Of a stretch of 64,000 bases of DNA, positions 23,590 through 45,902 are shown one piece after another. Source of the stretch: an uncultured Chloroflexia bacterium (lineage in GTDB: Bacteria; Chloroflexota; Limnocylindria; Limnocylindrales; CSP1-4). The DNA lies in assembly GCA_963764975.1 (NCBI GenBank), contig CAVXUF010000002.1, forward strand, positions 467,809-531,808, in the 5' to 3' direction. Position numbers and translations under genes: made by a program. The notes beneath the pieces were generated by a model that worked only from the letters and a program-made list of their open reading frames with translations, had not been told where the DNA came from and made no database searches. Each line of letters begins with the position of its first letter. Within the stretch, counting starts at the first letter, position 1.

Positions 23590-23690
23590 GGCCGAAGCAT
23601 ACCGGGCACCGATGCGCCGCGACGCTCTTCTCGTAGGGCGACCTCAGCGAGGCCGACTGCCGCAAGCAGAAGCGGGAAACCGAGGCGGCG

Positions 23691-23921: not shown

Positions 23922-24063
23922 CCTCGGTCGCCGAGTGGCGGTCTGGCTGTCAATCATGAGCGTTGCCTAACCAATCCCGAAAATGGGCTTCCGGGACCGA
24001 ATGTTCAGATTCCGACAAGCGTAGGTCGCCGAATGTTTGTCACGGGTTACAACATGAGGATCG

Positions 24064-27661: not shown

Positions 27662-29119
27662 CTAGGCGACGAGGTTGCCACGACGAGGCTTGTCGGGCCT
27701 CGGATAGCCGAGCCGAACGAGTTCGTCCTTCCACAGTCGATTGAGGATGGCCTGTCGAAGGCTGACGTTCCGCGGCAACAACTTGCTGACCTGATGTCGG
27801 CTCGGATATCTGCCCTCAGCGTGGATTGACCGAATCGCCGCCAGGATTAGGTCCTGCCGATGCCGTTGAGCTTCCATGGATTGGTCCTCGACTAATTGAA
27901 GATGGCGCTCTCGAATGAGCCGGCATTCGTCGGGATACAGCCGACTGAGCTGACGGGCGTCGACACGAAGGTCCCTTCGCACCGACCGAAGCGACGGTGG
28001 GACCTCCTGGCCGACGGCCGCGCGAAGCTTCCTTCTTACTCGGTTCCAGTCGAGGACGCGGTGTGTCTCCGTCGACTTCGGGATGTATGGGACCAGGGTC
28101 GGGCCCATGGTCAATTCAAGAAGCGTTACGCGACCAGCGAGGAAGTCGGGAAGGCGAAAGCCTGACGCGGCACAGATCCTGAGTGCGCCACCGATCGTCG
28201 GCCTGCGACGTCCGTCCTTCCACAGGCTGACGGTCCCCGCGCTCATCTGGATCATGTCCGCAAAGCGGATGTACTTGCCACCGGTACTGCGCTCGACCGC
28301 AAGTTGAACAGCGGCCGACGTTGCCACCGGGCTAACCACTTCGCCCGCGGCGGGAGGGTTCGCGATGAGATCGCAGAGGGCCGCCGTGACGTACTCCTGC
28401 CAGTTCAAGACGCGCTCATCGAGGTCCCCTTCGACGGCCTTCACGGCCTCCCATGCGACGCCGAGGAAGCGTCCGCATTCGCAGTAACCGGGCCGTGCCC
28501 ACGCTGCTAACGTCCCCCGCTTGGCTCGACAGCTCGGATCTGAGCAGGCCGACCTGAGCTTGACCCCGTGTCGGATGCATACCTCGAGTTCGGTGAACTG
28601 CCAGAGCAGCGGCTCATAGATGCCGGCAGGCGGTTGTGCGGCGGCGCCAATGGCGGGGCTGGGGACTGGATGGCTCCATTCGAAGTAGCAGCAAGGGCAG
28701 TAGGCGCGGTGGATGCGAAAGGCTCGCTTGGTCGGGAGGACGGGCGCCCAACCAAGGAGCGTCGTCGACCGGATGTCCTCTCGTCCCGTGAGCCGGCCCA
28801 AAGCCTCCGCGATGATCTCGCCGGTGTTCCATGGCCCGATCAGCGTTGAGCGGGGTTTGCGCAGGAGGTCTCGAGTGACGGCCTCGTAGTCAGCCCGAGT
28901 ACGACCTGGCCGCGTCGCGTCACTTCCGGCGTCGGCGATCCAATGCAGGAGCTCGACTGGCGGGATGCGGTGGTCCCAAGCGAGTCCGATGACGTAGCCA
29001 GCGAGGCTGACGACCATGCCGGTTCCCGTGTACTCGGGCGCTCGTCCTTGGAGGACGCTGCGTTCCGGCCACTTCTCAGCGCTGAAGTCCCAGCCCGCGG
29101 GATTCTGTTTGTCAGACAT
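27662..29119 (-). CDS. TniQ/TnsD family target-selection protein
   Basis: HRAYCPCCYFEW ... CIRHGVKLRSACSDPSCR ... YCECG is the TniQ zinc-binding-like pattern. The start is at ATG 29119, overlapping the upstream stop in ATGTCTGA. Confidence 0.55.
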   Translation of the reverse strand: MSDKQNPAGWDFSAEKWPERSVLQGRAPEYTGTGMVVSLAGYVIGLAWDHRIPPVELLHWIADAGSDATRPGRTRADYEAVTRDLLRKPRSTLIGPWNTGEIIAEALGRLTGREDIRSTTLLGWAPVLPTKRAFRIHRAYCPCCYFEWSHPVPSPAIGAAAQPPAGIYEPLLWQFTELEVCIRHGVKLRSACSDPSCRAKRGTLAAWARPGYCECGRFLGVAWEAVKAVEGDLDERVLNWQEYVTAALCDLIANPPAAGEVVSPVATSAAVQLAVERSTGGKYIRFADMIQMSAGTVSLWKDGRRRPTIGGALRICAASGFRLPDFLAGRVTLLELTMGPTLVPYIPKSTETHRVLDWNRVRRKLRAAVGQEVPPSLRSVRRDLRVDARQLSRLYPDECRLIRERHLQLVEDQSMEAQRHRQDLILAAIRSIHAEGRYPSRHQVSKLLPRNVSLRQAILNRLWKDELVRLGYPRPDKPRRGNLVA

Positions 29120-30263
29120 CGTCTGGCTCCGCTTCGCCAACGGGGTCATCCTCGAGGCCACGTTCACCCGGTCTCAGGGTGCGAGGGTCGTCGTAGTTGA
29201 CCGTGGGACGTGGAGGTGCAATGTCTTCCTGGACCGTCGATGGCGCGGTGCCCTCGAGGATCGCGATCACGTCGTCGATGGTCACACTCGCCTCCTCGGC
29301 AATGCGCTTCTCGAAGGCAACGAACCGATGCGCCAGCGACCGGAGTTGATGCGGCTGGAGAGGCACCCGCTCCCCCAACACGTCCTCAGCCGTGTACTTG
29401 GCTGGACGCTCGGCAAGAAGCCTGTTCGCACTGGCGATCCAACGATGCAACCTGGCCACCGAACCGACGCTGTAGGCCATCAGGAAGCTGAGCACGTCAT
29501 CACTTGCTGCAGGGGCCTTGGCGCCCATTACGGCAAGTTCGAGCGCAGCGATACGAGCGAACTCGAGTCGGTCTTTGTGCCCGCGGGTCGATTGATAGCG
29601 CGGAAGGTAGACCTCTGCAACGGCTGTTGACGTCGTGCGGTATTCGAGGACCTCGAAACCTCCGCTGAGGACCAGAATGACCCCGGCAGCCGCGGCGAAC
29701 TGGGCGAGCATCTCGGCCCCATCACCCGGCACGGCGACCGGGATTCGTCGTCCTCGCCGCTCGAAGCGGGTCACGACGACCACCTTGACCTTCCGATGCT
29801 CGCATTCGCTCGCGGCCGCGATCAGCTGGTCGGCGCATTCCTTCAGCTGTGCCCGTCGCCCCAGCACCCAACCTGCCGAAACGGATCGAAGCTCGCTGGA
29901 CGGGACCTGTACATCGGACCGGGCCGCTCCGAGCTTGCCCTGGATCTCCGCGAAAAGCGTGCGGAGGTCGAGCACGCCCTTACGATCGAAGGTCGCCAAG
30001 ACTGGGACCACTGGCGAAAACGATGGGTCGCGAAGCATCTCGAGACGGTGTCCGTAGGCAAACATGTTCGCGCCAATCAGCGTCGCGGCGTCGCAGTCTT
30101 CCCCGGTCGGTCCGTACACGAGAATCAGGGAACCTGCCTGCTCGGTTGAGAGGAGGGATCCGAGACGGTCCACGGCGACCTTTTGGAGCCGGTGCGCCGC
30201 GGGAGTCGCTTCCGCGTTGTCTGAGTCCGGCGCAGGCAGACCACGGGCGATCGCAAGGGTCAC
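29112..30263 (-). CDS. TnsC/TniB-position AAA+-like protein with degenerate Walker A (LILVYGPTGEDCDAATL, no Lys-Ser/Thr)
   Basis: It sits between the transposase and tniQ with GTGA/ATGA overlaps, and is about 383 aa. Its P-loop-like segment lacks the conserved GK[ST]. Confidence 0.4.
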   Translation of the reverse strand: MTLAIARGLPAPDSDNAEATPAAHRLQKVAVDRLGSLLSTEQAGSLILVYGPTGEDCDAATLIGANMFAYGHRLEMLRDPSFSPVVPVLATFDRKGVLDLRTLFAEIQGKLGAARSDVQVPSSELRSVSAGWVLGRRAQLKECADQLIAAASECEHRKVKVVVVTRFERRGRRIPVAVPGDGAEMLAQFAAAAGVILVLSGGFEVLEYRTTSTAVAEVYLPRYQSTRGHKDRLEFARIAALELAVMGAKAPAASDDVLSFLMAYSVGSVARLHRWIASANRLLAERPAKYTAEDVLGERVPLQPHQLRSLAHRFVAFEKRIAEEASVTIDDVIAILEGTAPSTVQEDIAPPRPTVNYDDPRTLRPGERGLEDDPVGEAEPDDV

Positions 30264-33148
30264 GGTGCGCCATCCTTGCCCGTGAATGGGATGACGTTGC
30301 CTCCGGATCCGACCTCCTCGAAGTCGTCAGCGCGATGACGGATCTTCGAACCAAAGATGAGTGCTGATCGAGCGTCGGAGGAAACCCGTGCGGCGGCCAG
30401 CTTGGGTGCTCGAGAAGACCTCGCCACGGCTGTGTGCTCGTCCTCAGGCACGACTGGGGCAGCCCACAGGGGTTCACGCGCCGCGCCGAGAACATCGCCA
30501 CGAGGCAGGTCGAGGCGCTTCGCGGCCGTTCGGCCACTCGCCTTCCTCGCCGCCGCCTGTTCGGCGATCAGGTCTCCTTCCCGCTCCAGCATTTCGACGA
30601 GCAGGTCCCCGAGCTTGCCGTCCTCGACCTGCTTGCGCCGGTAGTGGCCCTCGTTGAAGGCCAGGACTACCTTGGTGAAGAAGGAGAGTTCCAGGTAGGT
30701 CAGGTGGAAGCGAGCGATGGGCGAGCGTAGGACGCATCGAACCCAGCGAGCGGCGACAAATTCTCCATCGTCCGTGTGACGTGGGACGAACACCCACACG
30801 GCACCGATGTCGCCACGAATGATCCTCACCGTCACCTGAACGCCTTCGAGCCGAGGGTGCGTGAGGGCCTCATCCCAGTAGTAGAGACGGTTCACCCAGA
30901 TCCCATTGCTGTTGGAGACCTTCGGACGCCATGCATGTCGAACGGCCATCTCACGCTCGATGTGCGCACTCCAGCGGACGAGGCGCGACTGGCGCATACC
31001 GTGTTCGAAACGCGCATCCCAAGCTTCGTCTGTCGTCTGGCGGAGTGCCTGGATGACTCGCTCGTGCTCGACAAGCGCGTCCCGTTTGTCAACGAGCGCG
31101 ATGGCCTCCGCAAGGGGCCAGATCGCGTGGTTCCGGGGATCAAGCTCACGGTCCATGGCGCGCGCATTCTTGGAAATCTGGGTATTGGCCATCATCGCGT
31201 TGAACAAGTCGGTATTGATCGCCCCGAACCTCCGTTCGACCGGTAGACCGCCCCGGCCACTCGATTTCAGGCGGTACTTCACCTCAGAGCCGTGAAGCGC
31301 TAGGAACTTTTGGACTCGAGTGGTCTTGTGGACAAGCGCGTTGTCGAGAACGTAGACCTCGGACAGGAAGCCGAACTTTCGGATCTGGTCAGCGAGGGCC
31401 TCGAGGACGACACCCTCGTCGACCTCGCCGAAGTGCCAAGCCTGCCCGAGCTTCTTCCCCGAGAAGCCATCGACAAGTCGGAAGAGGCTCGGGCGCAGCG
31501 CGCCGTCCCGGGTGAAGCGCTCGCATACCCAGATGTCGGTGACGGTCGCGTCCCCATGAGCGATCTGGCCAGGGTATTGGCCGTTCGGCGACTCTGAGTC
31601 CGGATCGAACATGACCCACGGCTTCTTGGAGGCAGCACCCTTGTGCCCGACGCTCTTGAGCAGCGACTCGTAGATCGGACGTCCTCGGAGCCAGGTCAGG
31701 ATGGCCGGATAGCTCGGTGCTTTGATGCCTTGCTTGTTGGCGCGGGATAACACGTCGCGATAGAACGCTTTGGCCGACGGTTTTCGCCCAGGCGTGTCGA
31801 AGAACGCCGCTGCGCGGACGACCAGGAAGTCGTTCACCGGTTCGGCGAGGTGGCTGCCAGGTCTACCTGCATTCGGACGTTCGAGCAGGCCCGCGAACCC
31901 GCAGCCGATCTCAGCCCATTCCCAGTAACGCGTCTGCCATTCCCGGACAGTGGCCAGGGCTGGGTTCTTGCCCGCCACGACGGGAAACGCAATGCGCTCG
32001 CGCGCCCAATACTCCTGTAGAGCGACAAGTCGCTCCTCGGCAAGTTCGACCGCGTCAGGTCCTGCTCCATCGAACCGCGCCTCGATCAGGGCGAGGTTCG
32101 CTCGATCCTCATCGTCCGCGGGGCCGAGTCCACTCATCGCTCCAGATCTGATTGCTTGGTCGACGTCTGAGCGAGAGACCACTTTCGTCCTGCGTCCATC
32201 GGGACCGTCGATTTGCTTGAACGAGATGCTGCCCGCCGACGTTCGGACAATCTCGTACCGAGCATCGAGCCAGAGGACCATCTCGCCGGCCTTGAGATTG
32301 ACCGGTCCCGGCCGTCCTCCACCGACCGCGACCACCACTGGTGACGGCATCTGCGCGGCGACGACAGGCGAGAGGTAGGCGAAGGCCGCGTCCTCATACT
32401 CGAGTTCGTACGCCAACAGGTCGACATAGATCAGGCCGCTCAGGATGGCGATGCAGATGTCGTCCTTAGAGAACCCGCGACGACGCAGTTCGCCGACCGG
32501 GATACCTGGATGGTCTGCGACGCACGACCAAATCGCGGATGCGATCCCCTCCGGAACAGCGCATCCGATGAAGCTCGCAAGGTATTTGGCGTTGCTGATC
32601 TCCTTCTTGCTGAGCGACTCGATGACGATGACCGTGTAGGTGAGACCCCATTCGGCGGCGTAGTCGTCGCCGCTTGGACAGCGCCAGAGTCCGTCGACCT
32701 TGACGTAGAACCCTGGGTGCGCGTCGATCTGGTCGTCTACCGCCTTCTGCGTCTTGATGTCGACCCAGCCGGGAGCCTTGTCGCCCCAGAAGACGAAAGC
32801 GTCCATGGTTCCCCACTGCGATGGGAACCTGACCTTTCCGTCGTCGCCGAGCGTGGCAAAGACCCGCTTCACCTGCTCCTTGGGCTGCGCCGCGTACCAG
32901 AGGACTCGCGTCCAATACTCGAACAGCTTGTAAACGTTGTACTCACTGAACAATTCAGCTTCCCTCGTGCGACCCGCCTTCTTGCTCGCGATCCTCGCGC
33001 TGCCGTGGTAGCGATCGGGGCGGGTCTTTCGTGACGCACCGATTGCCGCCCAGACCCGCCGACAGATGGCTTCCCCGCCGGCCGATAGAGCTGGCGACAG
33101 TCCAGACCGGTAGGTTTCGAAATCCTCTGCCTCGAATCTGCGTTTCAT
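30260..33148 (-). CDS. fused TnsA-TnsB transposase (TnsA endonuclease-like N-domain + DDE/rve transposase)
   Basis: The N-terminal region aligns to the Tn7 TnsA catalytic core: SKKAGRTREAELFSEY.. (E), TMDAFVFWGD (D), VDIKTQ (K). The DDE domain has DATVTD ... VLDNA ... VERRF. The start is ATG 33148 (MKRRFEAEDFETY). Confidence 0.7.
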   Translation of the reverse strand: MKRRFEAEDFETYRSGLSPALSAGGEAICRRVWAAIGASRKTRPDRYHGSARIASKKAGRTREAELFSEYNVYKLFEYWTRVLWYAAQPKEQVKRVFATLGDDGKVRFPSQWGTMDAFVFWGDKAPGWVDIKTQKAVDDQIDAHPGFYVKVDGLWRCPSGDDYAAEWGLTYTVIVIESLSKKEISNAKYLASFIGCAVPEGIASAIWSCVADHPGIPVGELRRRGFSKDDICIAILSGLIYVDLLAYELEYEDAAFAYLSPVVAAQMPSPVVVAVGGGRPGPVNLKAGEMVLWLDARYEIVRTSAGSISFKQIDGPDGRRTKVVSRSDVDQAIRSGAMSGLGPADDEDRANLALIEARFDGAGPDAVELAEERLVALQEYWARERIAFPVVAGKNPALATVREWQTRYWEWAEIGCGFAGLLERPNAGRPGSHLAEPVNDFLVVRAAAFFDTPGRKPSAKAFYRDVLSRANKQGIKAPSYPAILTWLRGRPIYESLLKSVGHKGAASKKPWVMFDPDSESPNGQYPGQIAHGDATVTDIWVCERFTRDGALRPSLFRLVDGFSGKKLGQAWHFGEVDEGVVLEALADQIRKFGFLSEVYVLDNALVHKTTRVQKFLALHGSEVKYRLKSSGRGGLPVERRFGAINTDLFNAMMANTQISKNARAMDRELDPRNHAIWPLAEAIALVDKRDALVEHERVIQALRQTTDEAWDARFEHGMRQSRLVRWSAHIEREMAVRHAWRPKVSNSNGIWVNRLYYWDEALTHPRLEGVQVTVRIIRGDIGAVWVFVPRHTDDGEFVAARWVRCVLRSPIARFHLTYLELSFFTKVVLAFNEGHYRRKQVEDGKLGDLLVEMLEREGDLIAEQAAARKASGRTAAKRLDLPRGDVLGAAREPLWAAPVVPEDEHTAVARSSRAPKLAAARVSSDARSALIFGSKIRHRADDFEEVGSGGNVIPFTGKDGAP

Positions 33149-33660
33149 GTCGATGACCTGGCGGCGATGGGCACGGCTACGCAGATTGCACACAGTCCGC
33201 CTTCACGCGTGGCCTGACGGCGCAGACGCTCCGCTCGACGCAGTAGCGCCAAGTCCGGGTCACCCGAGTCGTGCCAGATCGCGCGATCGAGCAGCGCCAT
33301 CGGGACGACTCGCCCGACGCCGGCCAATGCCCGATGCGCTGCCCCGAAGTCACAGGCGTGTCGGATCGTCGTTCGGTCTGCCTGGCTCAGGGCGACATCA
33401 GAGCCAGCCCGCTCGTGTGACTGCAGGAACTCCGCATATCGGGTCTCGAGCGATCGCGCCGACACGCCGAGCGTGAGGCGAACTCGGTCGAGCACATGCC
33501 ATGGCATGTCAGCGTGCTTCGTATGCATTTCGAGAAGCACCTGGAAGGCTTCGTGCCATTGGGCGCCGGTGGGTCGCTGGCGGGCGGGACCGCGAGAAGG
33601 CGTGGCGACCGGAGTCGGCGAGTTCGCGTGATGGTGTGCATCGGAAGGCATGCCCACCAC
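33145..33660 (-). CDS. hypothetical protein translationally coupled upstream of tnsAB
   Basis: Its TGA stop overlaps the tnsAB ATG (ATGA). 171 aa as listed; the true start is uncertain (internal Met at MHTKHAD or MPWHVL). Confidence 0.35.
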   Translation of the reverse strand: MVGMPSDAHHHANSPTPVATPSRGPARQRPTGAQWHEAFQVLLEMHTKHADMPWHVLDRVRLTLGVSARSLETRYAEFLQSHERAGSDVALSQADRTTIRHACDFGAAHRALAGVGRVVPMALLDRAIWHDSGDPDLALLRRAERLRRQATREGGLCAICVAVPIAARSST

Positions 33661-33840
33661 AGAAGCAGCAGATGGCGCCGATAGCTATGGCGCGCCGGCT
33701 CGCGAATGCGGGCTTTGCGGGATTGTGAGGCGAATTCCGCCGACCGGAGGTGCGTTTGGGCAACGCCATCGCACCATGAGCGGAGCGTTGAGCTTGTTCG
33801 TCAGTCAGACAACGCGCGTCGATCCTCTGTTGACGAGGGT

Positions 33841-34383
33841 ATGGAAACCCTTGAAATGAGCGTGCCGGAAGCGGCACGACGCCTCGGTCGTAATGAGAGC
33901 ACCGTCCGTCGAATGATCGACGACGGCCGCCTGCCTGGTACACCCAAAAGGAAGCCGGGCGCCCATGCCAAGGTCTTGCGTGCGGCTGTCGAGGCGATGG
34001 CTGCCACCTCTCGCCAGTACTCCTCGATCTCGGCACGACTAGCGAACCTTCCCACGAGGGTTTGGAGCGGCCGCATGGGGCCGGCTCTGTTCATCCTCGA
34101 CCACGAAGCTATCCGCCGCGAGGTCTACCGGCACGTTTACCTTGGGCCAGATCGAATCGACTTCGACGTCATCTACTCGGAGTTCCTGGCCGACGAGGAC
34201 GTTGCGCTGGTGGAGGCGGCGCACGTCTTGTACGACGCTGCTGTCGACGTCAGCTTTACGCGACTCGTAGAGACGCTTCGGGGCGAGCGTCTCCTGCGTG
34301 TGGGTCTCGCCATTGAACTGCGCGAGGGTTCGATCGACCGATGGGAGGCTTTTCGCATCATCGGCCGGCACAGTCGCAGGTGA
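33841..34383 (+). CDS. helix-turn-helix (excisionase/AlpA/MerR-like) DNA-binding protein
   Basis: METLEMSVPEAARRLGRNESTVRRMIDDGRLPG is an HTH_17-like motif. Third-codon positions are GC-rich in this frame. It overlaps the antisense ORF 34039..34860. Confidence 0.45.
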   Translation: METLEMSVPEAARRLGRNESTVRRMIDDGRLPGTPKRKPGAHAKVLRAAVEAMAATSRQYSSISARLANLPTRVWSGRMGPALFILDHEAIRREVYRHVYLGPDRIDFDVIYSEFLADEDVALVEAAHVLYDAAVDVSFTRLVETLRGERLLRVGLAIELREGSIDRWEAFRIIGRHSRR

Positions 34384-34860
34384 GGTGAAAAGGCTCGGAC
34401 CCAGAATCCGGAGTTCCTGTGGACTTCCGGATGGCGCGGCTGCGGTCTCCGCGACGATGGTCGCGACCAACTGGCGTCGGACGCTTCGGAGGGCGACGAC
34501 AGGGTTACGGCTCCCCCGCCCAAGACGGAGCCGGGACCGCTTCGGCAGACCAATCAGGTCCGCGTAGAAGCGTTCGTTCTCGGGAACCAACGCGACTCGC
34601 AGGCCGGTGGCTCGACCGAGGATCGTCATGTCGGCAGCGAGCTGCGCGTCCGCCCAAGCCAGGTCGATGAGGTTGTCGGCGATCGACGTCGGCGGGAGCA
34701 GCGGTGTCACATGGTCGATACCACGGGGATCCTCGAGCATCGTCCGCAACAAGATGACGCGCCCTGAGCCGCGGCCTGTCTCTGGACAAGGGCGTTCCCA
34801 TTGCTCTCGCAGCTCTTCGGCCGTCGTGCCTTCGGGATGGACGCGCGTTCGGAGGCTCAT
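34039..34860 (-). CDS. hypothetical protein downstream of, and 4-nt overlapped with, the FtsH-like AAA+ protease gene
   Basis: 273-aa ORF. The N-terminal about 150 aa look protein-like. The 3-prime part overlaps the plus-strand HTH gene, so its extent is uncertain. Confidence 0.35.
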   Translation of the reverse strand: MSLRTRVHPEGTTAEELREQWERPCPETGRGSGRVILLRTMLEDPRGIDHVTPLLPPTSIADNLIDLAWADAQLAADMTILGRATGLRVALVPENERFYADLIGLPKRSRLRLGRGSRNPVVALRSVRRQLVATIVAETAAAPSGSPQELRILGPSLFTSPATVPADDAKSLPSVDRTLAQFNGETHTQETLAPKRLYESRKADVDSSVVQDVRRLHQRNVLVGQELRVDDVEVDSIWPKVNVPVDLAADSFVVEDEQSRPHAAAPNPRGKVR

Positions 34861-36236
34861 GCCGCCTCCGGCGTCATGAAGGCCGCCGCCTCGATCGCGG
34901 CCATCAGCTCGTCGCCCGTGAGTTCGGTCGCAGCATCGAGGGCTTTGGCGAATGTGGTGATCGGGCCGAAATTTGCCGCGACGATCCGCTCGGCCGCGGC
35001 GCGTGCCGAGACGAGCGTGGCCGCGACCACGGAGCCCAGACTGTCCTTCAGGTTTTCGGGCACATTGAGGCCGAACTCGGCGAGGGCCACCGGTGGGTGA
35101 CCAGCCTCCCAGCCCTGCTCCACGCGCTGGACCGCTCGATTCGTGGCCATCTCCAGATCCGCACCCGCCAATGAGGGCTCGCCGAGGATGGCGGCCTCTG
35201 AACAGGTTCCGCAGAACACGCTGATCAGGAAGTCGCGGTGCTCGTCATCAGGCAGGTCGTTGGGACTGATGCCTTCAAGGCCGAAATTCGTTTTCCCGCC
35301 GCCGTCGTTGTCGATCGAGACGGCGTGAACCCACGACGCGCCGTCGCCGCCACGGCCGGCGGCACGAGCCAGGATGACCAGGCCGGCGACATGACCGGCC
35401 TCATGGACGGCTGTCCGCCAGCGCGATGGGGAGTTCGTCTGCTCGGGCAGGATGTTGCCGGCGCGGCGCAGCGCCTCGACCAGGTCGGCGTCGACAAGGA
35501 CCGAACGTCCGGCGACCAGGGCCAGTCCGGCGGCGTCCTCGACGAACGCCTGGATGTCGGCCGGTGATCGGTCGCGACTGAGTCGGGCGGCCCGTCGGAG
35601 GTCGAGGGTGCCATCGGTCGGCCGAGACCGCGAGTACAGGGCGAACAGCTCGGCGCGCTCGTCCTCGTTGGGCAGGTCGAAGAAGATGTGCGTCCCCAGC
35701 CGACCGCTGCGGATGAGGGCGGGGTCCAGCTCCGCGGGGTGGCGATTCGTCGCCACGACGACGATCGGACCCTCGGAGGGGACCAACCCGGACAAGGTCG
35801 ACAGGGCCGAGGTCAGCAAAAGTCTGGTCGCCGGAGTATGGGTCCCGAATGCGCGCTGAACCGCCCAGGAGTCTGCCTCGTCGATGAAGACAACACTTTT
35901 CTGAGGAGCAGAAGCGAGCGAGCGGATGGCTCCCCGTAATCGGTCCGGGCTCAACTCGTCCGATGGGATCTCGTAGAGGTCCACCCCATCGCCCAATTGC
36001 GAGGCGAGGTAACGGGCGAGATGGGTCTTGCCTGTGCCGGGCGATCCGTAGAAGAGGATGCCCCGTGGTGGGACGGCGCCGAGGAGTGCGACTCGTTCGG
36101 GATCGCGGAGGCGAGCAAGGAGGGAGTCGACTTCGGCCATCGCGTGACCGATACCGACGACCTGCGATCGGTCGAACCGGGCCATCTCGACTCGGTGGGC
36201 ATCGAGCCAGGCTTGGGTGAATCGCGCCTTGAGCAT
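34857..36236 (-). CDS. soluble FtsH-like AAA+ ATPase fused to M41-type zinc peptidase (no TM domain)
   Basis: Walker A GSPGTGKT, Walker B VVFIDEAD and SRH SGRLG. The peptidase part has TAVHEAGHVAGL (HEXXH) and LAGADLEMATN, like the FtsH protease domain. No N-terminal TM helices. Confidence 0.7.
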   Translation of the reverse strand: MLKARFTQAWLDAHRVEMARFDRSQVVGIGHAMAEVDSLLARLRDPERVALLGAVPPRGILFYGSPGTGKTHLARYLASQLGDGVDLYEIPSDELSPDRLRGAIRSLASAPQKSVVFIDEADSWAVQRAFGTHTPATRLLLTSALSTLSGLVPSEGPIVVVATNRHPAELDPALIRSGRLGTHIFFDLPNEDERAELFALYSRSRPTDGTLDLRRAARLSRDRSPADIQAFVEDAAGLALVAGRSVLVDADLVEALRRAGNILPEQTNSPSRWRTAVHEAGHVAGLVILARAAGRGGDGASWVHAVSIDNDGGGKTNFGLEGISPNDLPDDEHRDFLISVFCGTCSEAAILGEPSLAGADLEMATNRAVQRVEQGWEAGHPPVALAEFGLNVPENLKDSLGSVVAATLVSARAAAERIVAANFGPITTFAKALDAATELTGDELMAAIEAAAFMTPEAA

Positions 36237-36401
36237 CTGTTGGACTCCGGGTGACGGGGTGTGTCATCCGAGGAGACCAGCTATGGGGCGCTAGGGGAAG
36301 CACGTCGGGAGGCTCTAGAGGCCGGGGTGCGGTCATTGCGATCTTTGGGACCGCGAATGGGCCCTTCCTTGACAGCGCCAGTGTCCCAACCATCGTCTGA
36401 C

Positions 36402-36608
36402 ATGAAGAGCCAGCGGTTCATGGGCACGGAAGAGGTGGGGCGCCGACTCGGTATGAGTTCCGAGTGGGTGCGGCGGCAGTGCATTGCCATGAAGATGCCG
36501 GCGATCGTCTACCGCACAGGTTCGCGATCGGTGTACCGGATCACCGAGGAAGGGCTCGCTGAGTTCCAGCGGCGATATGCGGGCACCGCTGACGATGTTC
36601 AGGACTAA
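36402..36608 (+). CDS. excisionase/AlpA-like HTH protein
   Basis: 68 aa from ATG 36402: MKSQRFMGTEEVGRRLGMSSEWVRRQ...IVYRTGSRSVYRITEEGL. Confidence 0.5.
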   Translation: MKSQRFMGTEEVGRRLGMSSEWVRRQCIAMKMPAIVYRTGSRSVYRITEEGLAEFQRRYAGTADDVQD

Positions 36609-36898
36609 GCGCGATCCGAGTACGGCAGCGAATGGACCCGATGGGTTGGTTTGCCTGTTCCTCGCGGGTAGGCGTCGTCGGCCGGCCGAACAGTAAGACT
36701 CTTACAGTGTCGTTGCGCTACACCATCTCGAGGAGCCACCTTGAGCCAGGGCGGCGTGGTCGCGTCTCTCGCATCGGCGCAGATCCGCGCCACTTGAAGC
36801 GAACGCCTAAGGCCACTTGCTGCCGTACTGGGCGCGATCCCATGCGGGCGTCAGGCCGAACAGGACACCAACGGACTGGCGCGCGGAGGCTGCGAGCT

Positions 36899-39112
36899 CT
36901 AGAGGTTGTCGGCACCCATGTCAGCCCAACCAGGGGGCCACAGCTCCATGTGATCCTCACCCTGCGGCGCTTGCGCGGCACTCTCGGGCCGACGAGGTGA
37001 GGAAGCCGTGGCCGCCTCCGAGAGCAACTCGTCGAAGCGAGCAGCGAGCTCCAGATCGGGACTCGCTGGAATCTCCCGGATCCCGTCGATCTGATCGAGT
37101 CGGTACTCGCTGATCCGTCCGACCAGGACCAGGTCTCCACGAGACCTGGTCAGACCGACGTAGACCAAGCCGGCCGTCTGCGCCGGCGCCGACCTGAACG
37201 GGAGGATCAGGATCACCCGTCCAGCCTCCCAACCCTTGAAGGAATGGACGGTGGAGACCTTGAGGCGGGCGTCCCCGAATGCGAATGTCTTCTTGTTCGC
37301 CTGCGCGATCCGCCATGGCGCGTCCTGTTCCCGACCCGTCGACCGTTCCATCATCGCCCCAGTGCGGGTGACGGGAAAGACGTGGTTCGTGCTCACACCC
37401 TGCTCGGCGAGGAGCCGGACAAGCGCCTGGCCCAGCGGCTTATCTGGGACCACGATCGCGACGTCGCGCGCTCGATAGTCTGGTTCGGCCTGCCACGATC
37501 GAAGCACGCCAATCACCTCCGCAGCGGCATCGGCCGGCCTGTGCGCCCTGATCGTCGAGACGGTGGCATCTGGAGGCAGGAGTCCATCCTCAGCCGCTTG
37601 AAGCGGAGGCGTCTTCAGAGACCACTCAGCGGCGAAAGTGGTGGCAAGAAGGACACTTGATGCCGGCAGCCTGATGGCCTTGCCGAGCCGATGGACGCGG
37701 CCCGTCGTTCCTCCAAACAGCCGGGCAATATCGCCGCGCGTCATGGCCGACTCACGCTCATACAGGCGCTGGGCCGCGTCGTATGCCAGGACGACCTCAG
37801 AAGCCCCAAGACGCTGGACTAGCTCGAACCAGGCGGGACTGAAATCCTGCGCCTCATCGATGAACACGGCGTCAAACTGGAGCGTATCGGGTACTCCACG
37901 CTGTTCGAGAAGGCGGATCGCAGACGCCGGCCAGTCAGCTTCGAGCGCCTGTTGATCGGCCGCCTCGTCGTCCCACGGTCCCGCCTCGACGGGGCGCGTG
38001 GCTCCGATCGGTGGAAGTGGCTCGCGGTAGTAGTCGTGGACGCGGCGGCACAGTTCGTGGAGGTGCAGGACGGTTACACGGTCTGGCCGGTACGCGACAG
38101 GGACGAGCCGGAGCATCCCTCGCACGTAGTTGGTCAACGTCCTGTTGAAGGTCAGAATCAGGGACCTCCTCCCACGCTGGGCCGACACGCCGGCCCGCTG
38201 TGCGAGGACAAGGGTTTTACCGCTGCCTGCCACGCCTTCGAGGCCCGTGTAGCCGTCACGAGGAACGGCGAAGTCCCGCTGCTCCTTGTTGAGGGTGATG
38301 GTCGCAAGCGCATCGGGCATTCGGCGTTCGTGGGTCAGCGCTTGGTCGAGGGCCTCGAACCACTGGTCCTCAAGAACCGCGGCTCGACCCAGGATCGGCA
38401 CCACGCGCAGTGGGTCGCTCACGACGAGGCCGTCGTGTCCGAATGCATCGACGTGGCGCGCGTCTGGATCCTGGGATGCCAGGCGTCGGGCATCGGCCGT
38501 CGATGACTGGGAAAAGAACAGACCCGCCCTCAGGACCCCGAATCGCCGCGAGTCGTCGTTGATCGCCTCGCCGATCTCCGGAGCGTAGACGCCATACACG
38601 CGCGAGCGGACGGCATTGAGGAACCTGAACGGCGAAGCGAAGCGCCCTTCGATCGGGCCCTCGCCAACCCAGACCCCTCGTTCGACCCGGAAATACTTCA
38701 GGTCCCAGTCGACGACATCCCAGAACATGCCGCCCGCGGTGCGGTGCAGCGCGGCGATCAGCGGGCGGTCCGCATCCAGGTGTGGGCGGACGTAGATGTT
38801 CCAATCGTGGGGAAGGACGTCATCAAGAAACCGGGCCAGACGACGTTCGCCGTCCGTCAACGGAGGGATGAACCTGTCGGGATCATTGATCTCCGCCCAT
38901 GCCGGACTGATCCGACCTTCATCCGCGGCGGTCAGGCGACGGAGCCCTGGATGGTGCTCCAGAAAATCACGGGTCTCGCCGTCGTCGAAGCGAGCCGAGA
39001 TGATCCCGGACCGGACAGCCAGAACCGTCGCATTGCCCAATTGCGGATGCCGGACACGCTCGCCGGGGCCGAGCGGGGTCCGTTCGTCAGGTCCTTCGCC
39101 CGCGAGCGTCAT
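36899..39112 (-). CDS. NERD domain + UvrD-like superfamily I helicase
   Basis: The N-terminal NERD-like region has HDWNIYVRPHLD. The helicase has motif I GVAGSGKT, motif II FIDEAQDF, and the C-terminal VHSFKGWEAGRVILILP. Confidence 0.7.
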   Translation of the reverse strand: MTLAGEGPDERTPLGPGERVRHPQLGNATVLAVRSGIISARFDDGETRDFLEHHPGLRRLTAADEGRISPAWAEINDPDRFIPPLTDGERRLARFLDDVLPHDWNIYVRPHLDADRPLIAALHRTAGGMFWDVVDWDLKYFRVERGVWVGEGPIEGRFASPFRFLNAVRSRVYGVYAPEIGEAINDDSRRFGVLRAGLFFSQSSTADARRLASQDPDARHVDAFGHDGLVVSDPLRVVPILGRAAVLEDQWFEALDQALTHERRMPDALATITLNKEQRDFAVPRDGYTGLEGVAGSGKTLVLAQRAGVSAQRGRRSLILTFNRTLTNYVRGMLRLVPVAYRPDRVTVLHLHELCRRVHDYYREPLPPIGATRPVEAGPWDDEAADQQALEADWPASAIRLLEQRGVPDTLQFDAVFIDEAQDFSPAWFELVQRLGASEVVLAYDAAQRLYERESAMTRGDIARLFGGTTGRVHRLGKAIRLPASSVLLATTFAAEWSLKTPPLQAAEDGLLPPDATVSTIRAHRPADAAAEVIGVLRSWQAEPDYRARDVAIVVPDKPLGQALVRLLAEQGVSTNHVFPVTRTGAMMERSTGREQDAPWRIAQANKKTFAFGDARLKVSTVHSFKGWEAGRVILILPFRSAPAQTAGLVYVGLTRSRGDLVLVGRISEYRLDQIDGIREIPASPDLELAARFDELLSEAATASSPRRPESAAQAPQGEDHMELWPPGWADMGADNL

Positions 39113-39308: not shown

Positions 39309-39551
39309 ATGGGCAAGCGAGTCAAATGCGTTCTCCTGGCCACCTACACGAACGACAGCGGCGACCGGATGGAATGGGTACTGCCCGAAGTGTCGACGCC
39401 CGAAGTCGAGGTCATCGGGGCGTTCCTTCGCCACGCCTATCCAGGAGGTGGAGCGCTCGTGTCCGTCGTTCCCATCGAAGCGCTGAGCGACTTCACGGGT
39501 GGTTTCGATGGCGAGTTCGAGGCATTCCTAGCCCGCGCCTGGACGCGATAG
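39309..39551 (+). CDS. small hypothetical protein; its 3-prime end lies in direct repeat A
   Basis: 80 aa. The C-terminal coding part (...VVPIEALSDFTGGFDGEFEAF) recurs in frame at 58.83 kb. Confidence 0.35.
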   Translation: MGKRVKCVLLATYTNDSGDRMEWVLPEVSTPEVEVIGAFLRHAYPGGGALVSVVPIEALSDFTGGFDGEFEAFLARAWTR

Positions 39552-39594
39552 CGGGCCGCGATGCGCGCGATAGGCGGCAGTCAGGACATCGGTC
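39463..39594. repeat. direct repeat copy A (about 50-bp block + 21-bp block), homologous to 58828..58913
   Basis: The block ccgtcgt..atcga.gcgctgagcgacttcacgg(g)tggtttcgatggc and the block gcggca.tcaggacatcggtc each differ from copy B at a few positions only. Confidence 0.7.
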
Positions 39595-39710
39595 GATTTG
39601 TTGCCCTGAGGAATGGCCGCACTTCGATCGCTTCGACTGAGGCTTCTGGGCGATACTGAATGACTCGGTGGACGTCATAGGTCGACGCGCCGTCAAGTCG
39701 TCGTGCGCAG

Positions 39711-42700
39711 ATGCTGGCGGTCCCTTCGCATGAGGGGCCTCGATTTGGTCGCATTGGAGCGAACATGCGCGAGGGAACGAACGTGCGAGCGGCCTCCGGC
39801 TGGCCAGATCCGGGGCGAGAGGCCCTGACAATCCTCCGGGACCAGCTGGCGCCATTCGCGGAGGAGCATCTCTCGAGAGCCTACCCAGACTCGTATCGTC
39901 GAATCCTCGGGCTGGAGCGGCGTCCGGGAGCAACCATTGGGCAGGGTGGCCGCAAGGCCGTCGACGACCCCGACGAGCTCCTTGGCATCTTGTTGAACCA
40001 GCAGTACTGGTCCCGAGCTTTTGAGCCTGCGTTCGGTGGCGATACGAATGCCGCCTACCGGGTCAAGAACCTGTGCCGCGACATCCGCGAACTCCGAGCC
40101 GCGTTCGCGATGCACCAGCGCGATTTCACCCCCGCCGATGCGTGGCGGCTCGTGGATTCGACGATGAGGCTTCTCACCCTGCTTGACCTCCTCGATCAGA
40201 AGACCAAGGACTCGTTGGAGGAGATCCGACGAGAACTTCTGACGGCCAGCGAGAGCCCGGACACGGTTCGGCTGCGCCAGAAGCACCTTGCGCACGTCGC
40301 ATCGCGATTTGAATACGTCGATGTGGGGGCTATTGCGCCTTCGGTAGGTGGCGCTGTTGTACGTCTCAGGCTGGATGAAATCTACCGCTCCCCGCGGTTC
40401 GAGGCCATCAGCGTATCGATGGCACCCGTAGAGAGCGATGACACGGTTGTGGCACAGCCAGCTGGCACCCGGCCCCCGGAGACCGTTGGGCCAGCGGAAA
40501 TCCTCGGCGAGCGGCGCTTGTTGATCGTCGCCGGACCCGGCGCCGGCAAGAGCACGTTCATGCGATCCGTCGCTCGGGACCTCGCCCTTGGCCGAGACGT
40601 GCCGGGGATCGCCGCTGCACTCACGCCGATCCTGGTGGCCGCCAGTGCACTTGGAGAGGCGTTGGCCAATGGATCCGCGTCGTCGCTCGAGGACTACATC
40701 GAGACCCAACTCGCAGGCGATGCGGGACCTGCCCTGGGATCCGACATCCGCGCTGGTCGAGCGATGGTTCTGGTGGACGGTGTCGACGAGGTCGGTGCCC
40801 AGGGGGCTCAAATCAGAGTGGCCCAAGCTCTCGAACACTTCGGGGCGGCGCACCCCAGCGTCCGCATGGTTGTGTCCGCACGACCCATGGGCTACCGCGA
40901 AGTACGCCTTGGCGCAGACTTCACCGCATATCGGCTTTCGCCGCTCGGCTCGGGCGAGATCGAGGCGTTCATCGGCGGCTGGTTCGGGGCCGCCTTCCCG
41001 CAAGACGAGGCGGAGGCCAATCGGCGACGCAGCCTCGGCGTGAACGCGCTGATTTCCTCCTCAGCCGAGTTGCGCGACCTCGCGGGCACCCCCCTGTTGC
41101 TCACCGTGATCTGCCTGCTCGCGATGCGGGGAGGCACACTTCCTGAGCGCCGGGTGGAGCTCTTCAGGGTGGCAACGAACACCCTCCTGCATCAATGGCC
41201 AAGGACCCACGGATTCAATCTCGACGATTACGAGTTGCGGCTGCTCATGGGCAGGGTCGCCGCGAGAATTCTCGAGCGCCGTGAGCGCCTACTCCGGGCA
41301 TCGGAGCTCGAGGGGTTGCTCGAGAACGCGCTTGAGGACTTGCGCGGACTCGCCCGGCCCCAGGCCAGACAAGCGGCAGCAAGCATGTTGCGAATGATCG
41401 AGCAGCAGACCGGCTTCCTTGTCGAGCAAGGCGTCGACGCGGGTGAGCCGGTCTACGGATTCATCCATCGGAACTTCGCCGAATACCTGGCGGCGATTGA
41501 CCTGTTCGAGCGGCACGCCGCAGGCACGATCACCCTCAGCGACATCGTCTTCGATCCCCGCTATGGGGAGGCGATCCCCCTCTTCTTCCTACACGTGAGC
41601 GAGACCGGACTGGAGCTGTCATCCAGGCTCGTCGATGAAGTGCTGTCGCTTGACTCCCCGTTTCGAATCTATGCGTGCTTGGGCGAGCGTCTTGTCGTAG
41701 ACCTGTTGACCCAGGGCGTGCGCGTCAAGCCGATGGTGCGTGAGCGTGCTGTTCTGCTGGCAATTGAGGCGGCGATCTCTGTGAAGTCGTCGTATGTCGC
41801 GGACATGCTGATGACGGGACTCCACCGGCTGGCCACCGAAGACCGGCTCGGCCCCCAAGGCGACCTCCTGATGGAACGTATCGACGCGGCCCCATTCTCG
41901 CGAGGGAGACGGGCGCGGGTCGTATGGAAACTGCGGCCCGAGCCGTACACGGGCCCCGACGTGAGGTGGCTTCTCGACGAGGCGCGCGCCATCGCGGATG
42001 TCGAACCTGGCGAGGCGAACATGCTCCTGAAGCTCGCCTCAGCGGCCACCGGGTCGGAGGCTGCGGAGGTCGACGCTGCCCTGGATCGCCCCGCGGGAAC
42101 GCGGGCGGTGCTTCTCGCTTTTGCAACCGGCCCCGCCGCCACCGACCGGATTCCCATTACCGAGTCCCAGGCAGTTGGACTCGCCGACGCGGGGTTACTG
42201 CGATTATCGGCCGGGGACCTCGTCGCTCATCACGGCGTCCCACCTGGTTTTGATGCGGGGCCGTTCCTTCTGGACGTCGCGGATGTCGACCTCATTGACG
42301 TCGAAGGACTCTTGACACTCAACCAAGAGGGGCTCCCAATGTGGGTAGTCCTCCTGATCTCCGGACTGCGGTCATGGAGTCCGGCCGAGTCAGATGAAGC
42401 CGCAGCACGCTTCGTTCAGCTTCCTGAGCCGGCCGAAGACGCAACCGGATTCGCGCCCACCGTGCTGCTCGCGATCGTGGCCGCCGGGCGCATCGCCCAA
42501 CTGAGCGAGGCGGCGGAGATGCCGGACTGGCTACGGCGGGCGATCGATGCGGAGAATGCGGACGACGGCCTCGACATCGCGCTGGCTTTCCACTTTGTCG
42601 CCACGGCCGTGTCCACGGTCACGTCATGGGGCACTCCCCTGTTGGTGGGACTCCTAACGCATCGCGAGGGCTCCATCCGGAGGGGCGTGTGCCGGCGCAT

Positions 42701-44908: not shown

Positions 44909-44980
44909 TACATCCTCCCTCGGGCGCCTGCCACGTGCGCCGGAACGGCCAACGCGGAAGGATCTACCACGACCCAATCG

Positions 44981-45898
44981 TCACAGCGATCGAGCCTCCG
45001 CCTCCTCGGCGGATTGTCGAGTCACCGGCGGCGCGGGGGACCACAATAGTCCCAACGAAATGTCATCACCGCTTCCTGAAGCGGTGAGTTCCTCGAGCCA
45101 GCCGGGCACGCGCGAAACAACTTCGTCGAAACCGTCCTGCTGGATCAGGCTGGCGATGTCGGTTGCGAACCGAAGCATGCCTGTGTCGTCGACAAATGAG
45201 TTGACGAGTCCATCGGTTGACAGGAGGACGAGGGGCATGTGCTCGCGAAGGAGAGCCACCCGGAACAGACTCCAAGCGTCTTTCGAGCAGAGCGATGTGG
45301 TCTCGTTTGCGATGAGTCGGTCATCAGAAGGGATCGGTCTCGAGACCTTCCCGTCTGCTGAGACGCTTACAAGGTCCCCGTCGCCGACCTGCCAGGAGGC
45401 AAGAAACTCGGTTGTCGCGACTGCTGTCACAAGGGTCGTGCCATAGGCCACGTATGGATCGAGGTTTAGCGCATCAACGCTCCCTTCGCGGGTGCGCACT
45501 CCATCAAGCTCGACATCTGTGAATGGATTCGCCGCCAGATCGTCGTCTACCGCCTTTCGCCAGTCGCGGACCAACCGCCTTGGCAGGTCTTCGGTCAACC
45601 TTCCCCGGAGCATCCCTGGGCTGGCCGCCGCGATATCAATCTCGAGCAACTCGCCCGCCAGTGACATTGCGACCTGGTTGGCGAGGCGGGAGCCGTCTGC
45701 GCTACGGAATGACCGGGCGCTGCCGTGGCCGTCCGCCACGGAGAGCGCTACTGAGGAGCCATGCCCCACGCTAGGTAGCCATGCGATGGCATCCTGGTTC
45801 GGCATCCCACTCCGAATGTGAGATGCGCCCCTTACTGAAGCGCCCGATACACGCCAGCCACCACTATTCGGAGCTGCCCTCTCCGTCGGGCTGGCCAT
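44981..45898 (-). CDS. PP2C-family Ser/Thr phosphatase
   Basis: GASVRGASHIRSGMPNQDA..., VADGHGS, and the conserved Asp-rich C-terminal motifs (LSTDGL). The start is set at ATG 45898. Confidence 0.65.
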   Translation of the reverse strand: MASPTERAAPNSGGWRVSGASVRGASHIRSGMPNQDAIAWLPSVGHGSSVALSVADGHGSARSFRSADGSRLANQVAMSLAGELLEIDIAAASPGMLRGRLTEDLPRRLVRDWRKAVDDDLAANPFTDVELDGVRTREGSVDALNLDPYVAYGTTLVTAVATTEFLASWQVGDGDLVSVSADGKVSRPIPSDDRLIANETTSLCSKDAWSLFRVALLREHMPLVLLSTDGLVNSFVDDTGMLRFATDIASLIQQDGFDEVVSRVPGWLEELTASGSGDDISLGLLWSPAPPVTRQSAEEAEARSL

Positions 45899-45902
45899 CC
45901 GA

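What the first reader, a model, noticed from the sequence alone, without database searches (positions are those of the whole stretch)
33841..39112. Soluble FtsH-like AAA+ protease + 273-aa partner + NERD-UvrD helicase flanked by two excisionase-like HTH genes
An FtsH homolog without membrane anchor (AAA module plus HEXXH M41 peptidase) is co-transcribed with an unknown 273-aa protein. Nearby are a NERD-nuclease-domain/UvrD helicase fusion and two small AlpA/Xis-like HTH proteins, with no integrase. Cytoplasmic AAA-protease modules and NERD-helicases recur in defense islands, so this arrangement may be an uncharacterised defense or abortive-infection cassette.
Basis: partly seen in the sequence, partly recalled or inferred. 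Interest (0 to 1): 0.7.

Follow-up and report, generated by a model that had tools for sequence, protein, structure and literature searches.

The report
Soluble FtsH-like protease cassette beside transposon
A rare membrane-less relative of the FtsH protease, with a small unknown partner protein and two small DNA-binding proteins, forms a cassette that recurs beside the jumping genes of Tn7-like transposons, so it more likely controls mobile DNA than serves as the five-gene defence cassette first proposed.

Summary
The genes exist. Gene 34857-36236(-) encodes a cytosolic FtsH-family AAA+ zinc protease. Its model has pLDDT 92 and its best fold matches are all FtsH, YME1 or AFG3L2. Walker A/B, arginine fingers and HEXXH plus Asp are invariant in 44 relatives, but the pore-1 loop is deleted. 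Its stop overlaps the start of the 273-aa ORF by 4 bp. Only the first ~146 aa of that ORF are conserved, in a rare family (79 clusters among 1.84 billion) with an alpha-beta3-alpha core. Both small genes are HTH_17-like.

A Tn7-like operon (TnsA-TnsB fusion, TniB-like, TniQ) starts 650 bp away, so "no integrase" is wrong.

In 8 of 14 independent loci the FtsH-like gene lies just upstream of such an operon, on the same strand, and two unrelated transposase lineages are involved. Three of the other six loci have a large serine recombinase nearby.

The NERD-UvrD gene is not conserved with the cassette.

The pair is not housekeeping and always sits in variable, defence-rich DNA.

Best reading (0.4): a proteolytic control switch of mobile elements. 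A stand-alone defence system (0.3) is not excluded. Whether the cassette lies inside the transposon or is its landing site is unresolved.

The parts
34857..36236 (-). Cytosolic FtsH-family AAA+ zinc metalloprotease, 459 aa. No transmembrane region; pore-1 loop deleted.
34039..34860 (-). Partner ORF, 273 aa. The conserved domain is residues 1-146 (34423-34860), with an alpha-beta3-alpha core at residues 61-141. The tail 34039-34420 is not conserved.
   Evidence: 4-bp ATGA overlap with the FtsH-like stop
36402..36608 (+). HTH2: small HTH_17-like protein (68 aa), divergent from the FtsH-like gene.
36237..36401 (.). 165-bp divergent intergenic region between HTH2 and the FtsH-like gene. Presumed promoter/operator region (inferred).
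   Evidence: Related loci carry palindromes at this position. None was found in the window.
33838..34383 (+). HTH1: ORF with an N-terminal HTH_17 domain (residues 7-56). Its C-terminal part overlaps the tail of the partner ORF antisense.
33792..33811 (-). Single TGTCTGACTGACGAACAAGC motif between HTH1 and the transposon genes. Resembles the TGTC-repeat arrays found at the same position in L004/L064. Weak candidate for a transposon right end.
33145..33660 (-). 171-aa ORF upstream of TnsAB; homologous to p163 of L004 and to an ORF in L029.
30260..33193 (-). TnsA-TnsB fusion transposase of a Tn7-like element, 977 aa.
   Evidence: PDB 9BW1 (PmcCAST TnsAB) E 6.5e-43 over residues 36-804
29112..30263 (-). 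TniB/TnsC-like protein, 383 aa. Its Walker A lysine and Walker B acidic pair are lost, so it is probably inactive.
27662..29167 (-). TniQ target-selector protein, 501 aa.
   Evidence: PF06527 at 36.8 bits against a cutoff of 27
36899..39112 (-). NERD-like/UvrD-type SF1 helicase, 737 aa. A neighbour, not part of the conserved cassette.

Best explanation
What it is (shown). The cassette is compact and rare. It has four parts: a divergent HTH_17 gene; a cytosolic FtsH-family AAA+ zinc protease; a translationally coupled small protein of a new family; and a second HTH_17 gene. It is carried by mobile DNA of high-GC soil bacteria. In this window it lies directly upstream of the transposition operon of a Tn7-like transposon, on the same strand. 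That operon encodes a TnsA-TnsB fusion, a TniB-like protein and TniQ. The TniB-like protein looks inactive.

How it most likely works (inferred). The cassette acts as an ATP-dependent proteolytic switch of the mobile element.
- The HTH_17 proteins bind the divergent promoter region and keep the operon, and whatever is read through from it, silent.
- The hexameric FtsH-like enzyme has an intact ATPase and an intact zinc site but lacks the loop that normally grips and threads substrates. It therefore probably does not degrade proteins at large. It would cleave one docked client.
- The partner protein would deliver or mask that client. The client could be the partner itself or an HTH_17 regulator.
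- Removing that regulator would switch on the neighbouring mobility genes and possibly cargo genes. This is comparable to the ImmA/ImmR and CapP/CapH protease-repressor pairs, and to host ClpXP and FtsH acting on the Mu and lambda regulators (my own knowledge, not tested here).

The NERD-UvrD helicase is a separate neighbour.
For: Enzyme identity and intact catalytic residues.

Deleted pore-1 loop. E. coli 'FVEMFVGVGASRVR' aligns with 'LYEIPSDELSPDRLR'. The model has 5-6 residues between strand 86-91 and helix 97-108. This is conserved in all 44 relatives.

Translational coupling to the partner, seen in the window, L002, L004 and L064.

Co-occurrence across 18 loci. An HTH_17 gene lies within ~1.2 kb in 12 loci. 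A partner-family gene lies upstream and/or downstream in 10 of 16 informative loci. Partner and FtsH-like hits also share contigs.

Position relative to mobility genes. A Tn7-like core follows on the same strand, 1.5-3.5 kb downstream, in 8 of 14 independent loci. A large serine recombinase lies immediately downstream in L032 and within 7 kb in L003 and L028.

Repressor-switch layout. In L005/L006 an XRE gene sits divergent from a one-directional gene string (small genes, FtsH-like, TnsAB), with palindromic operators ATACCAACTTGGTAT between them. Palindromes also occur between HTH_17 and the FtsH-like gene in L001, L002 and L031.

Homology between L001 and L002 starts at the HTH_17 gene and runs through TniQ into the cargo.
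Against: No step of the mechanism has been tested. No substrate is known.

Six of 14 loci have no Tn7-like core. Three of those have no recombinase in the DNA held, so the cassette can exist apart from mobility genes.

The partner is absent from L003, L005/L006, L028 and L032.

In L004/L064 a fourfold TGTC-repeat array lies between the partner stop codon and the first transposon gene. It looks like a Tn7-type right end. A similar array in L004 coincides with a homology breakpoint. This suggests the cassette lies outside the transposon.

Two unrelated transposase lineages share the cassette. This needs either module exchange or common targeting.

All neighbourhoods are rich in defence genes, which fits the rival equally well.

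Confidence: 0.4

Rival explanations
1. A stand-alone anti-phage or abortive-infection system. The partner senses an infection cue. The released FtsH-like protease then destroys a host or phage protein, or a repressor of neighbouring defence genes.
Against: No PADLOC model covers the protease domain or the partner. The IetA match is generic AAA similarity, and the IetS-type protease is absent. The cassette's fixed, co-oriented place in front of transposase or recombinase genes is not expected of ordinary cargo. In Tn7-like elements cargo lies beyond TniQ. No close relative was found in phage, plasmid or IMG/VR collections that could suggest a conflict partner.
Confidence: 0.3
2. The link to the transposon is one of position only. 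The cassette belongs to some other mobile island and is a preferred landing site (attachment site) for TniQ-directed Tn7-like elements, as glmS is for Tn7. Its own function is unrelated to transposition.
For: In L004/L064 direct TGTC repeats start 6 nt after the partner stop codon and lie ~110 bp before the first transposon gene. Their start positions are 1882, 1906, 1973 and 1997. Repeat clusters occur at the same place in L001, L002 and L030. In L004 a second TGTC array coincides exactly with the point where it stops matching L064, which is 98% identical up to there. So such arrays behave as element ends. Two unrelated transposase lineages sit at the same place. Cassettes without a transposon exist (L003, L028, L032, L034, L062, L063).
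Against: The gene that touches the array differs between loci: the partner, an HTH_17 gene in either orientation, or an XRE gene. The spacing also varies. So no single recognition sequence is evident. No inverted copies of the arrays (left ends) and no target duplications were found in the DNA held. Occupancy of 8 in 14 would be unusually high for an attachment site. In L005/L006 no such array separates the cassette from TnsAB. A rare accessory gene is a poor homing target.
Confidence: 0.15
3. A transposition accessory factor. The AAA+ enzyme would dismantle the very stable post-transposition TnsB complex, as host ClpX does for phage Mu, with Ku protecting the broken donor DNA.
For: The cassette is conserved in front of the transposase operon in two lineages. 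A Ku gene is the first transposon gene in L001, L002, L004/L064 and L030.
Against: The pore-1 loop needed to pull on a substrate is deleted in the whole clade. Six of 14 loci lack a transposon. A protease domain is not needed for remodelling. Ku is absent from the window, L005, L006 and L029.
Confidence: 0.07
4. An ordinary housekeeping FtsH paralogue for protein quality control.
For: FtsH fold and intact active sites.
Against: No membrane anchor and no pore loop. It scores far below the FtsH equivalog threshold. It is present in only 3 of 185,579 species-representative genomes. In the window it lies in a 64-65% GC island within a ~70% GC genome.
Confidence: 0.02

Closest known systems
FtsH / YME1 / AFG3L2 (AAA+ peptidase family M41)
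   Same: Same two-domain fold. Walker A/B, second-region arginines, HEXXH and the third zinc ligand Asp are all conserved. About 25-30% identity to bacterial FtsH.
   Different: No N-terminal transmembrane helices and no periplasmic domain. Pore-1 loop (aromatic-hydrophobic-Gly) deleted. Accessory gene on mobile DNA. Coupled to a private partner protein. Below the curated family thresholds.
Protease-repressor switches of mobile elements and defence operons (ImmA/ImmR of ICEBs1, IrrE/DdrO, CapP/CapH) - comparison from my own knowledge
   Same: A zinc metalloprotease gene sits next to small HTH regulator genes at the regulatory edge of a mobile or defence locus. In L005/L006 there is a divergent repressor with operators.
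   Different: Those proteases are small ATP-independent M78/COG2856 enzymes. Here the protease is an AAA+-driven M41 enzyme. The regulators are HTH_17 (excisionase/MerR-like) rather than XRE in most loci. Cleavage is untested.
Tn7-like transposons with a natural TnsA-TnsB fusion (PmcCAST type I-B2, PDB 9BW1), and the uncharacterised Actinobacteria-dominated clade of Benler et al. 2021
   Same: The window's 977-aa protein aligns with PmcCAST TnsAB over 770 residues. TniQ and a TniB-like gene follow in the canonical order.
   Different: No CRISPR module. The FtsH-like cassette lies in front of the operon, and in relatives a Ku gene does too. Neither is mentioned in the two surveys read. The TniB-like protein of the window has lost its ATPase motifs. 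Ends were not identified in the window.
IetAS / IteAS anti-phage system (AAA+ ATPase plus separate serine protease)
   Same: An AAA+ ATPase of the classic clade paired with proteolysis. Weak HMM matches to IetA/IteA (67.8 and 57.9 bits).
   Different: Here the protease is a fused M41 zinc domain, not a separate subtilisin. The score is far below the IteA threshold (57.9 vs 510 bits). There is no IetS homologue.
NERD+UvrD candidate defence gene (PADLOC C3a187), for the neighbouring helicase only
   Same: Helicase core matches at 1.1e-53. Plasmid homologues are annotated as NERD proteins.
   Different: The N-terminal 270 aa match no NERD model directly. The gene is not linked to the FtsH-like cassette in other loci.

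Membership tests
FtsH (peptidase M41 AAA+ protease) | Classic-clade AAA+ module with Walker A, Walker B and second-region arginine fingers | tested here: met
   PF00004 at 74 bits. G64-T71, D119/E120, R176 and R179 are invariant in 44 sequences.
FtsH (peptidase M41 AAA+ protease) | C-terminal M41 zinc protease domain with HEXXH and a third ligand Asp | tested here: met
   H278, E279, H282 and D360 are invariant. The fold matches FtsH over both domains. The window protein's Pfam M41 score is only 11.5 bits against 29.9, although many clade members carry a precomputed PF01434 hit.
FtsH (peptidase M41 AAA+ protease) | N-terminal transmembrane anchor | tested here: not met
   The protein starts 23 residues before the AAA module. 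There is no hydrophobic 19-mer typical of a TM helix.
FtsH (peptidase M41 AAA+ protease) | Pore-1 loop with an aromatic-hydrophobic-Gly motif for substrate threading | tested here: not met
   The loop is shortened to 'SDELSP' (consensus 'SADELTP')..
FtsH (peptidase M41 AAA+ protease) | Curated equivalog score (NCBIfam TIGR01241) | tested here: not met
   125.7 bits against a cutoff of 600.
Tn7-like transposon (the neighbour) | TnsB-type DDE transposase, here fused to TnsA | tested here: met
   PDB 9BW1 TnsAB, E 6.5e-43, residues 36-804.
Tn7-like transposon (the neighbour) | TniQ/TnsD target selector | tested here: met
   PF06527 at 36.8 bits against 27.
Tn7-like transposon (the neighbour) | Active TnsC/TniB AAA+ regulator | tested here: not met
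   A homologous protein is present (26% identity to the TniB of L004). Its Walker A reads GPTGEDCD and its Walker B reads VVTRFE.
Tn7-like transposon (the neighbour) | Arrays of ~20-bp transposase-binding repeats, inverted at the two ends, with a target-site duplication | tested here: inconclusive
   The window has only one TGTC motif (33792-33811) and no inverted partner. Arrays on one side only were found in L004/L064 and L030.
Known anti-phage systems (PADLOC 2.0, IetAS) | All component genes match the system's models | tested here: not met
   Only a partial IetA match to the AAA module. The partner has no match and there is no IetS.
Protease-repressor switch (ImmA/ImmR-like, functional analogy) | The protease cleaves the adjacent HTH regulator | not testable with these tools
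   Adjacency and divergent layout only.
NERD-UvrD helicase (neighbour) | NERD nuclease-like N-terminal domain | tested here: inconclusive
   No Pfam or PDB hit for residues 1-270. Homologues aligning from residue ~68 are annotated as NERD.

The most novel reading that the evidence does not exclude
The cassette is a dedicated partner of Tn7-like elements, previously unrecognised, in one of two ways. It may be an element-encoded AAA+ protease switch that licenses transposition; that would be the first protease-gated Tn7-like system, with a Mu-like early region. Or it may be a landing pad that two unrelated TniQ lineages have converged on. In either case it features an FtsH that has lost its threading loop and works on a docked client presented by a new dsRBD-like partner.
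Probability: 0.25. Interest if true: 0.75.

Novelty: new variant of a known kind. Interest (0 to 1): 0.55.

Why it matters
FtsH is normally an essential, membrane-bound quality-control protease. A cytosolic version that keeps its ATPase and zinc site but has lost the substrate-gripping loop, and that travels with a private partner protein on mobile DNA, would be a new way of using this machine.

Its repeated position in front of the transposition genes of two unrelated Tn7-like lineages hints at a control layer or a target preference. Neither is described in the surveys of these transposons read here, and these transposons are being developed as genome-insertion tools.

If the cassette turns out to be a defence system instead, it would add an FtsH-type effector to the known repertoire.

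Tried and rejected
- Transposon ends in the window. I tried general repeat searches, k-mer and blastn-short comparisons of the putative right end against the rest of the window, a weight matrix built from the L004 array, and TGT-site and cluster scans. No convincing inverted partner or array was found.
- Left ends in related loci: none within the DNA held.
- A generic direct-repeat array detector. It gave mostly coding-sequence noise. Its one interesting hit, in L005, proved to be palindromic operators and not ends.
- Source organism. There is no exact gene record, no names in the cluster look-up, and the genome is not among the GTDB representatives scanned.
- Sequence searches with the partner against Pfam, PHROGs, NCBIfam, PADLOC and PDB found nothing.
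- A possible natural partner/FtsH-like fusion (P0204) looks like a frameshifted gene call, not a true fusion.
- A shared RibD_C neighbour between the window and L064 is only 40% identical, so it was dismissed as a common flank.
- Consensus promoter and terminator scans and an Rfam search of 33-40 kb gave nothing usable.
- The alphaproteobacterial soluble FtsH-like proteins (26-32% identity) were not examined for context.


Full report
SETTING

The window is about 70% G+C up to ~20 kb. It drops to 62-66% from ~20 to 47 kb and again from 50 kb to the end. The finding therefore lies in a large island of foreign composition. No tRNA gene is present.

Gene calls in this high-GC DNA rested on ORF lists and on codon-position GC.

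THE OBSERVATION

The FtsH-like gene
- ORF 34857-36236(-) encodes 459 aa with an AAA domain.
- Solved FtsH chains align through residues 25-374, which covers the HEAGH motif at 278-282.
- An alignment of 44 relatives (41-60% identity, all about 450 aa) shows these residues invariant: Walker A; Walker B; the two second-region arginines; H278, E279, H282; and D360.
- The AlphaFold model built on that alignment is confident (pLDDT 92.3, pTM 0.87).
- Its best PDB matches are FtsH, YME1, AFG3L2 and FtsHi over both domains.
- The protein starts 23 residues before the AAA module and has no hydrophobic segment outside the fold.
- It scores far below the curated FtsH thresholds. It is therefore a distant relative and not an FtsH orthologue.

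The pore-1 loop
In FtsH the loop carries the aromatic-hydrophobic-Gly motif that grips substrates.
- In the model only 5-6 residues link strand 86-91 to helix 97-108.
- The short version is conserved across the clade, with consensus SADELTPDR.

The partner
- The partner ORF (34039-34860) starts with an ATG that overlaps the FtsH-like stop codon (ATGA). This is the usual sign of translational coupling.
- A first search found only two homologues, and both matched the first ~140 residues only.
- I added copies read from related loci and searched with the profile. The family then grew to 71 proteins.
- An exhaustive profile search found 79 clusters among 1.84 billion representatives. None carries a Pfam domain or a name.
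- Most members are 200-230 aa with a proline- and alanine-rich N-terminal extension.
- The window's C-terminal ~115 codons have no counterpart. They run antisense to the HTH1 ORF. Codon statistics slightly favour the opposite frame there. The true C-terminus is therefore uncertain.

The two small genes and the helicase
- Both small genes are HTH_17-like. HTH2 is 51-56% identical to HTH_17 genes at the same position in other loci.
- The 737-aa protein is an SF1 helicase matching PADLOC's 'NERD+UvrD' candidate model in its helicase part.
- Its N-terminal region matches no model. Homologues annotated as NERD proteins do align from residue ~68.

Directly downstream of the cassette, on the same strand, lie four genes:
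- a 171-aa ORF;
- a 977-aa protein;
- a 383-aa protein;
- a TniQ protein.

The 977-aa protein aligns over 770 residues with the natural TnsA-TnsB fusion transposase of PmcCAST (PDB 9BW1, E 6.5e-43). This is a Tn7-like transposition operon.

The 383-aa TniB-like protein has lost the Walker A lysine and the Walker B acidic pair. I found no end arrays in the window. This copy may therefore be immobile.

NEIGHBOURHOODS ELSEWHERE

I read 17 further loci that carry a clade member or a partner homologue. I scored all of them with the same profiles.

Counts:
- An HTH_17 gene lies within ~1.2 kb of the FtsH-like gene in 12 loci.
- A partner-family gene lies upstream, downstream or on both sides in 10 of 16 informative loci.
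- Among 14 independent loci with at least 2.4 kb of downstream DNA, 8 have TniA/TnsAB-TniB-TniQ on the same strand, starting 1.5-3.5 kb after the FtsH-like stop.

Two transposition cores are involved, and BLAST cannot align their transposases:
- type A (L001, L002, L030);
- type B, the TnsA-TnsB fusion (window, L004=L064, L005, L006, L029).

The window's FtsH-like protein is closest to those of L001 and L002, yet its transposase is type B. Cassette and core have therefore been recombined at least once.

Of the six loci without a transposon:
- L032 has a large serine recombinase immediately downstream;
- L003 and L028 have one within 7 kb.

Other findings:
- The NERD-UvrD gene has no counterpart in any of these loci.
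- All neighbourhoods contain recognised defence genes.
- Clade members are absent from the plasmid and phage collections.
- There is no close relative in IMG/VR.
- Only three species-representative genomes carry one: Galbitalea, a Dormiibacterota MAG and a Limnocylindrales MAG.

INSIDE OR OUTSIDE THE TRANSPOSON?

This is unresolved.

For 'outside':
- In L004/L064 four direct repeats beginning TGTC start 6 nt after the partner stop codon and lie ~110 bp before the first transposon gene, Ku.
- Repeat clusters lie at the same place in L001, L002 and L030.
- In L004 a second TGTC array begins exactly where the contig stops matching L064, which is 98% identical up to that point. Such arrays therefore do mark insertions.

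For 'inside':
- L001 and L002 share homology from the HTH_17 gene through TniQ into the cargo.
- L005 and L006 share homology from an XRE gene ~1.1 kb upstream of the FtsH-like gene.
- That XRE gene is divergent from a one-directional gene string running into TnsAB. Palindromic operators lie between them. This layout recalls the early region of phage Mu.
- The gene that abuts the arrays differs from locus to locus.

No left end was found in the DNA held.

INTERPRETATION

The conserved unit is HTH_17 + partner + FtsH-like. It is not the five genes of the finding.

The unit belongs to mobile DNA and usually sits in front of the genes that move that DNA.

An enzyme with a working ATPase and zinc site but no threading loop is more likely to process a docked client than to degrade proteins in bulk. 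The small regulators and the partner are the obvious candidate clients.

I therefore favour a proteolytic switch of the mobile element (0.4). A self-contained defence system comes next (0.3). Below that are a purely positional link as a transposon landing site (0.15), a ClpX-like remodeller (0.07) and a housekeeping role (0.02).

The two large surveys of Tn7-like elements that I read do not mention FtsH or NHEJ. Full-text searches found no description of such a cassette.

LIMITS

- All functional statements are inference.
- The source organism was not identified.

Noticed in passing
window 43601-46607 (-): Three consecutive genes: vWA (45903-46607), PP2C phosphatase (44981-45967) and Ser/Thr kinase (43601-44977). 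The arrangement is like the TerY-phosphorylation triad. The kinase matches several PADLOC kinase models.
   Followed up: partly
window 39309-43511 (+) and 58804-63177 (+): A 1266-aa HEPN_Swt1 + NACHT protein (39711-43511) is preceded by an 80-aa ORF. A 60-nt stretch of that ORF (39439-39498) recurs at 85% identity at 58804-58863, just upstream of a second giant ORF (59290-63177, 1295 aa, no Pfam hit). The two giant proteins show no mutual similarity.
   Followed up: partly
window 29112-30263 (-): The TniB-like protein has lost the Walker A lysine (GPTGEDCD) and the Walker B acidic residues, unlike its relatives in L004, L029, L001 and L002. The transposon copy in the window may be immobile.
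   Followed up: partly
window 36616-36832: A 20-nt inverted repeat (36616-36635 / 36813-36832, 85% complementary) encloses 177 nt between the HTH2 stop and the NERD-UvrD stop. The region folds somewhat better than shuffles (z -2.6). No Rfam match.
   Followed up: partly
window 46745-49318 (+): An 857-aa protein with carboxypeptidase-regulatory-like repeats, in a patch of higher G+C. It contains a perfect 300-nt direct repeat (47495-47794 and 48401-48700, 906 nt apart), which suggests a recent internal duplication.
   Followed up: no
window 50071-53598 (-): Two WXG100-like small proteins (50071-50616 and 50812-51084), a 376-aa ORF and an FtsK/SpoIIIE ATPase (52180-53598). This resembles a type VII secretion or actinobacterial conjugation module.
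   Followed up: no
window 22393-24642; 24546-24601; 15657-15719: An EVE-domain protein (22393-23589, -) and an HNH-like protein (24064-24642, +) lie in the stretch beyond TniQ. There is a perfect 28-nt tandem duplication at 24546-24601 and a 21-nt x3 tandem at 15657-15719.
   Followed up: no
window 63208-63534 (-); L001 9128-9454; L002 11587-11994: A 108-aa ORF of unknown function has homologues (40-46% identity) next to the FtsH-like cassette in L001 and just after TniQ in L002. It appears to travel with these islands.
   Followed up: partly
L004 9673-9760 vs L064 20228: Two contigs are 98% identical over 9.7 kb. They diverge exactly where L004 begins an array of TGTC-initiated ~20-23-nt repeats. 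This is probably a second Tn7-like element inserted in L004.
   Followed up: partly
L005 8360-8530 and L006 838-1010: Palindromic operator-like sites (ATACCAACTTGGTAT, GATACCGGTTTGGTATC) lie between a divergent XRE gene and the gene string that contains the FtsH-like gene and TnsAB.
   Followed up: partly
L007-L027 (genome contigs): About 20 alphaproteobacterial genomes (Roseovarius, Nitratireductor, Rhodobacter capsulatus and others) encode a more distant soluble FtsH-like protein (26-32% identity). Their contexts were not examined.
   Followed up: no
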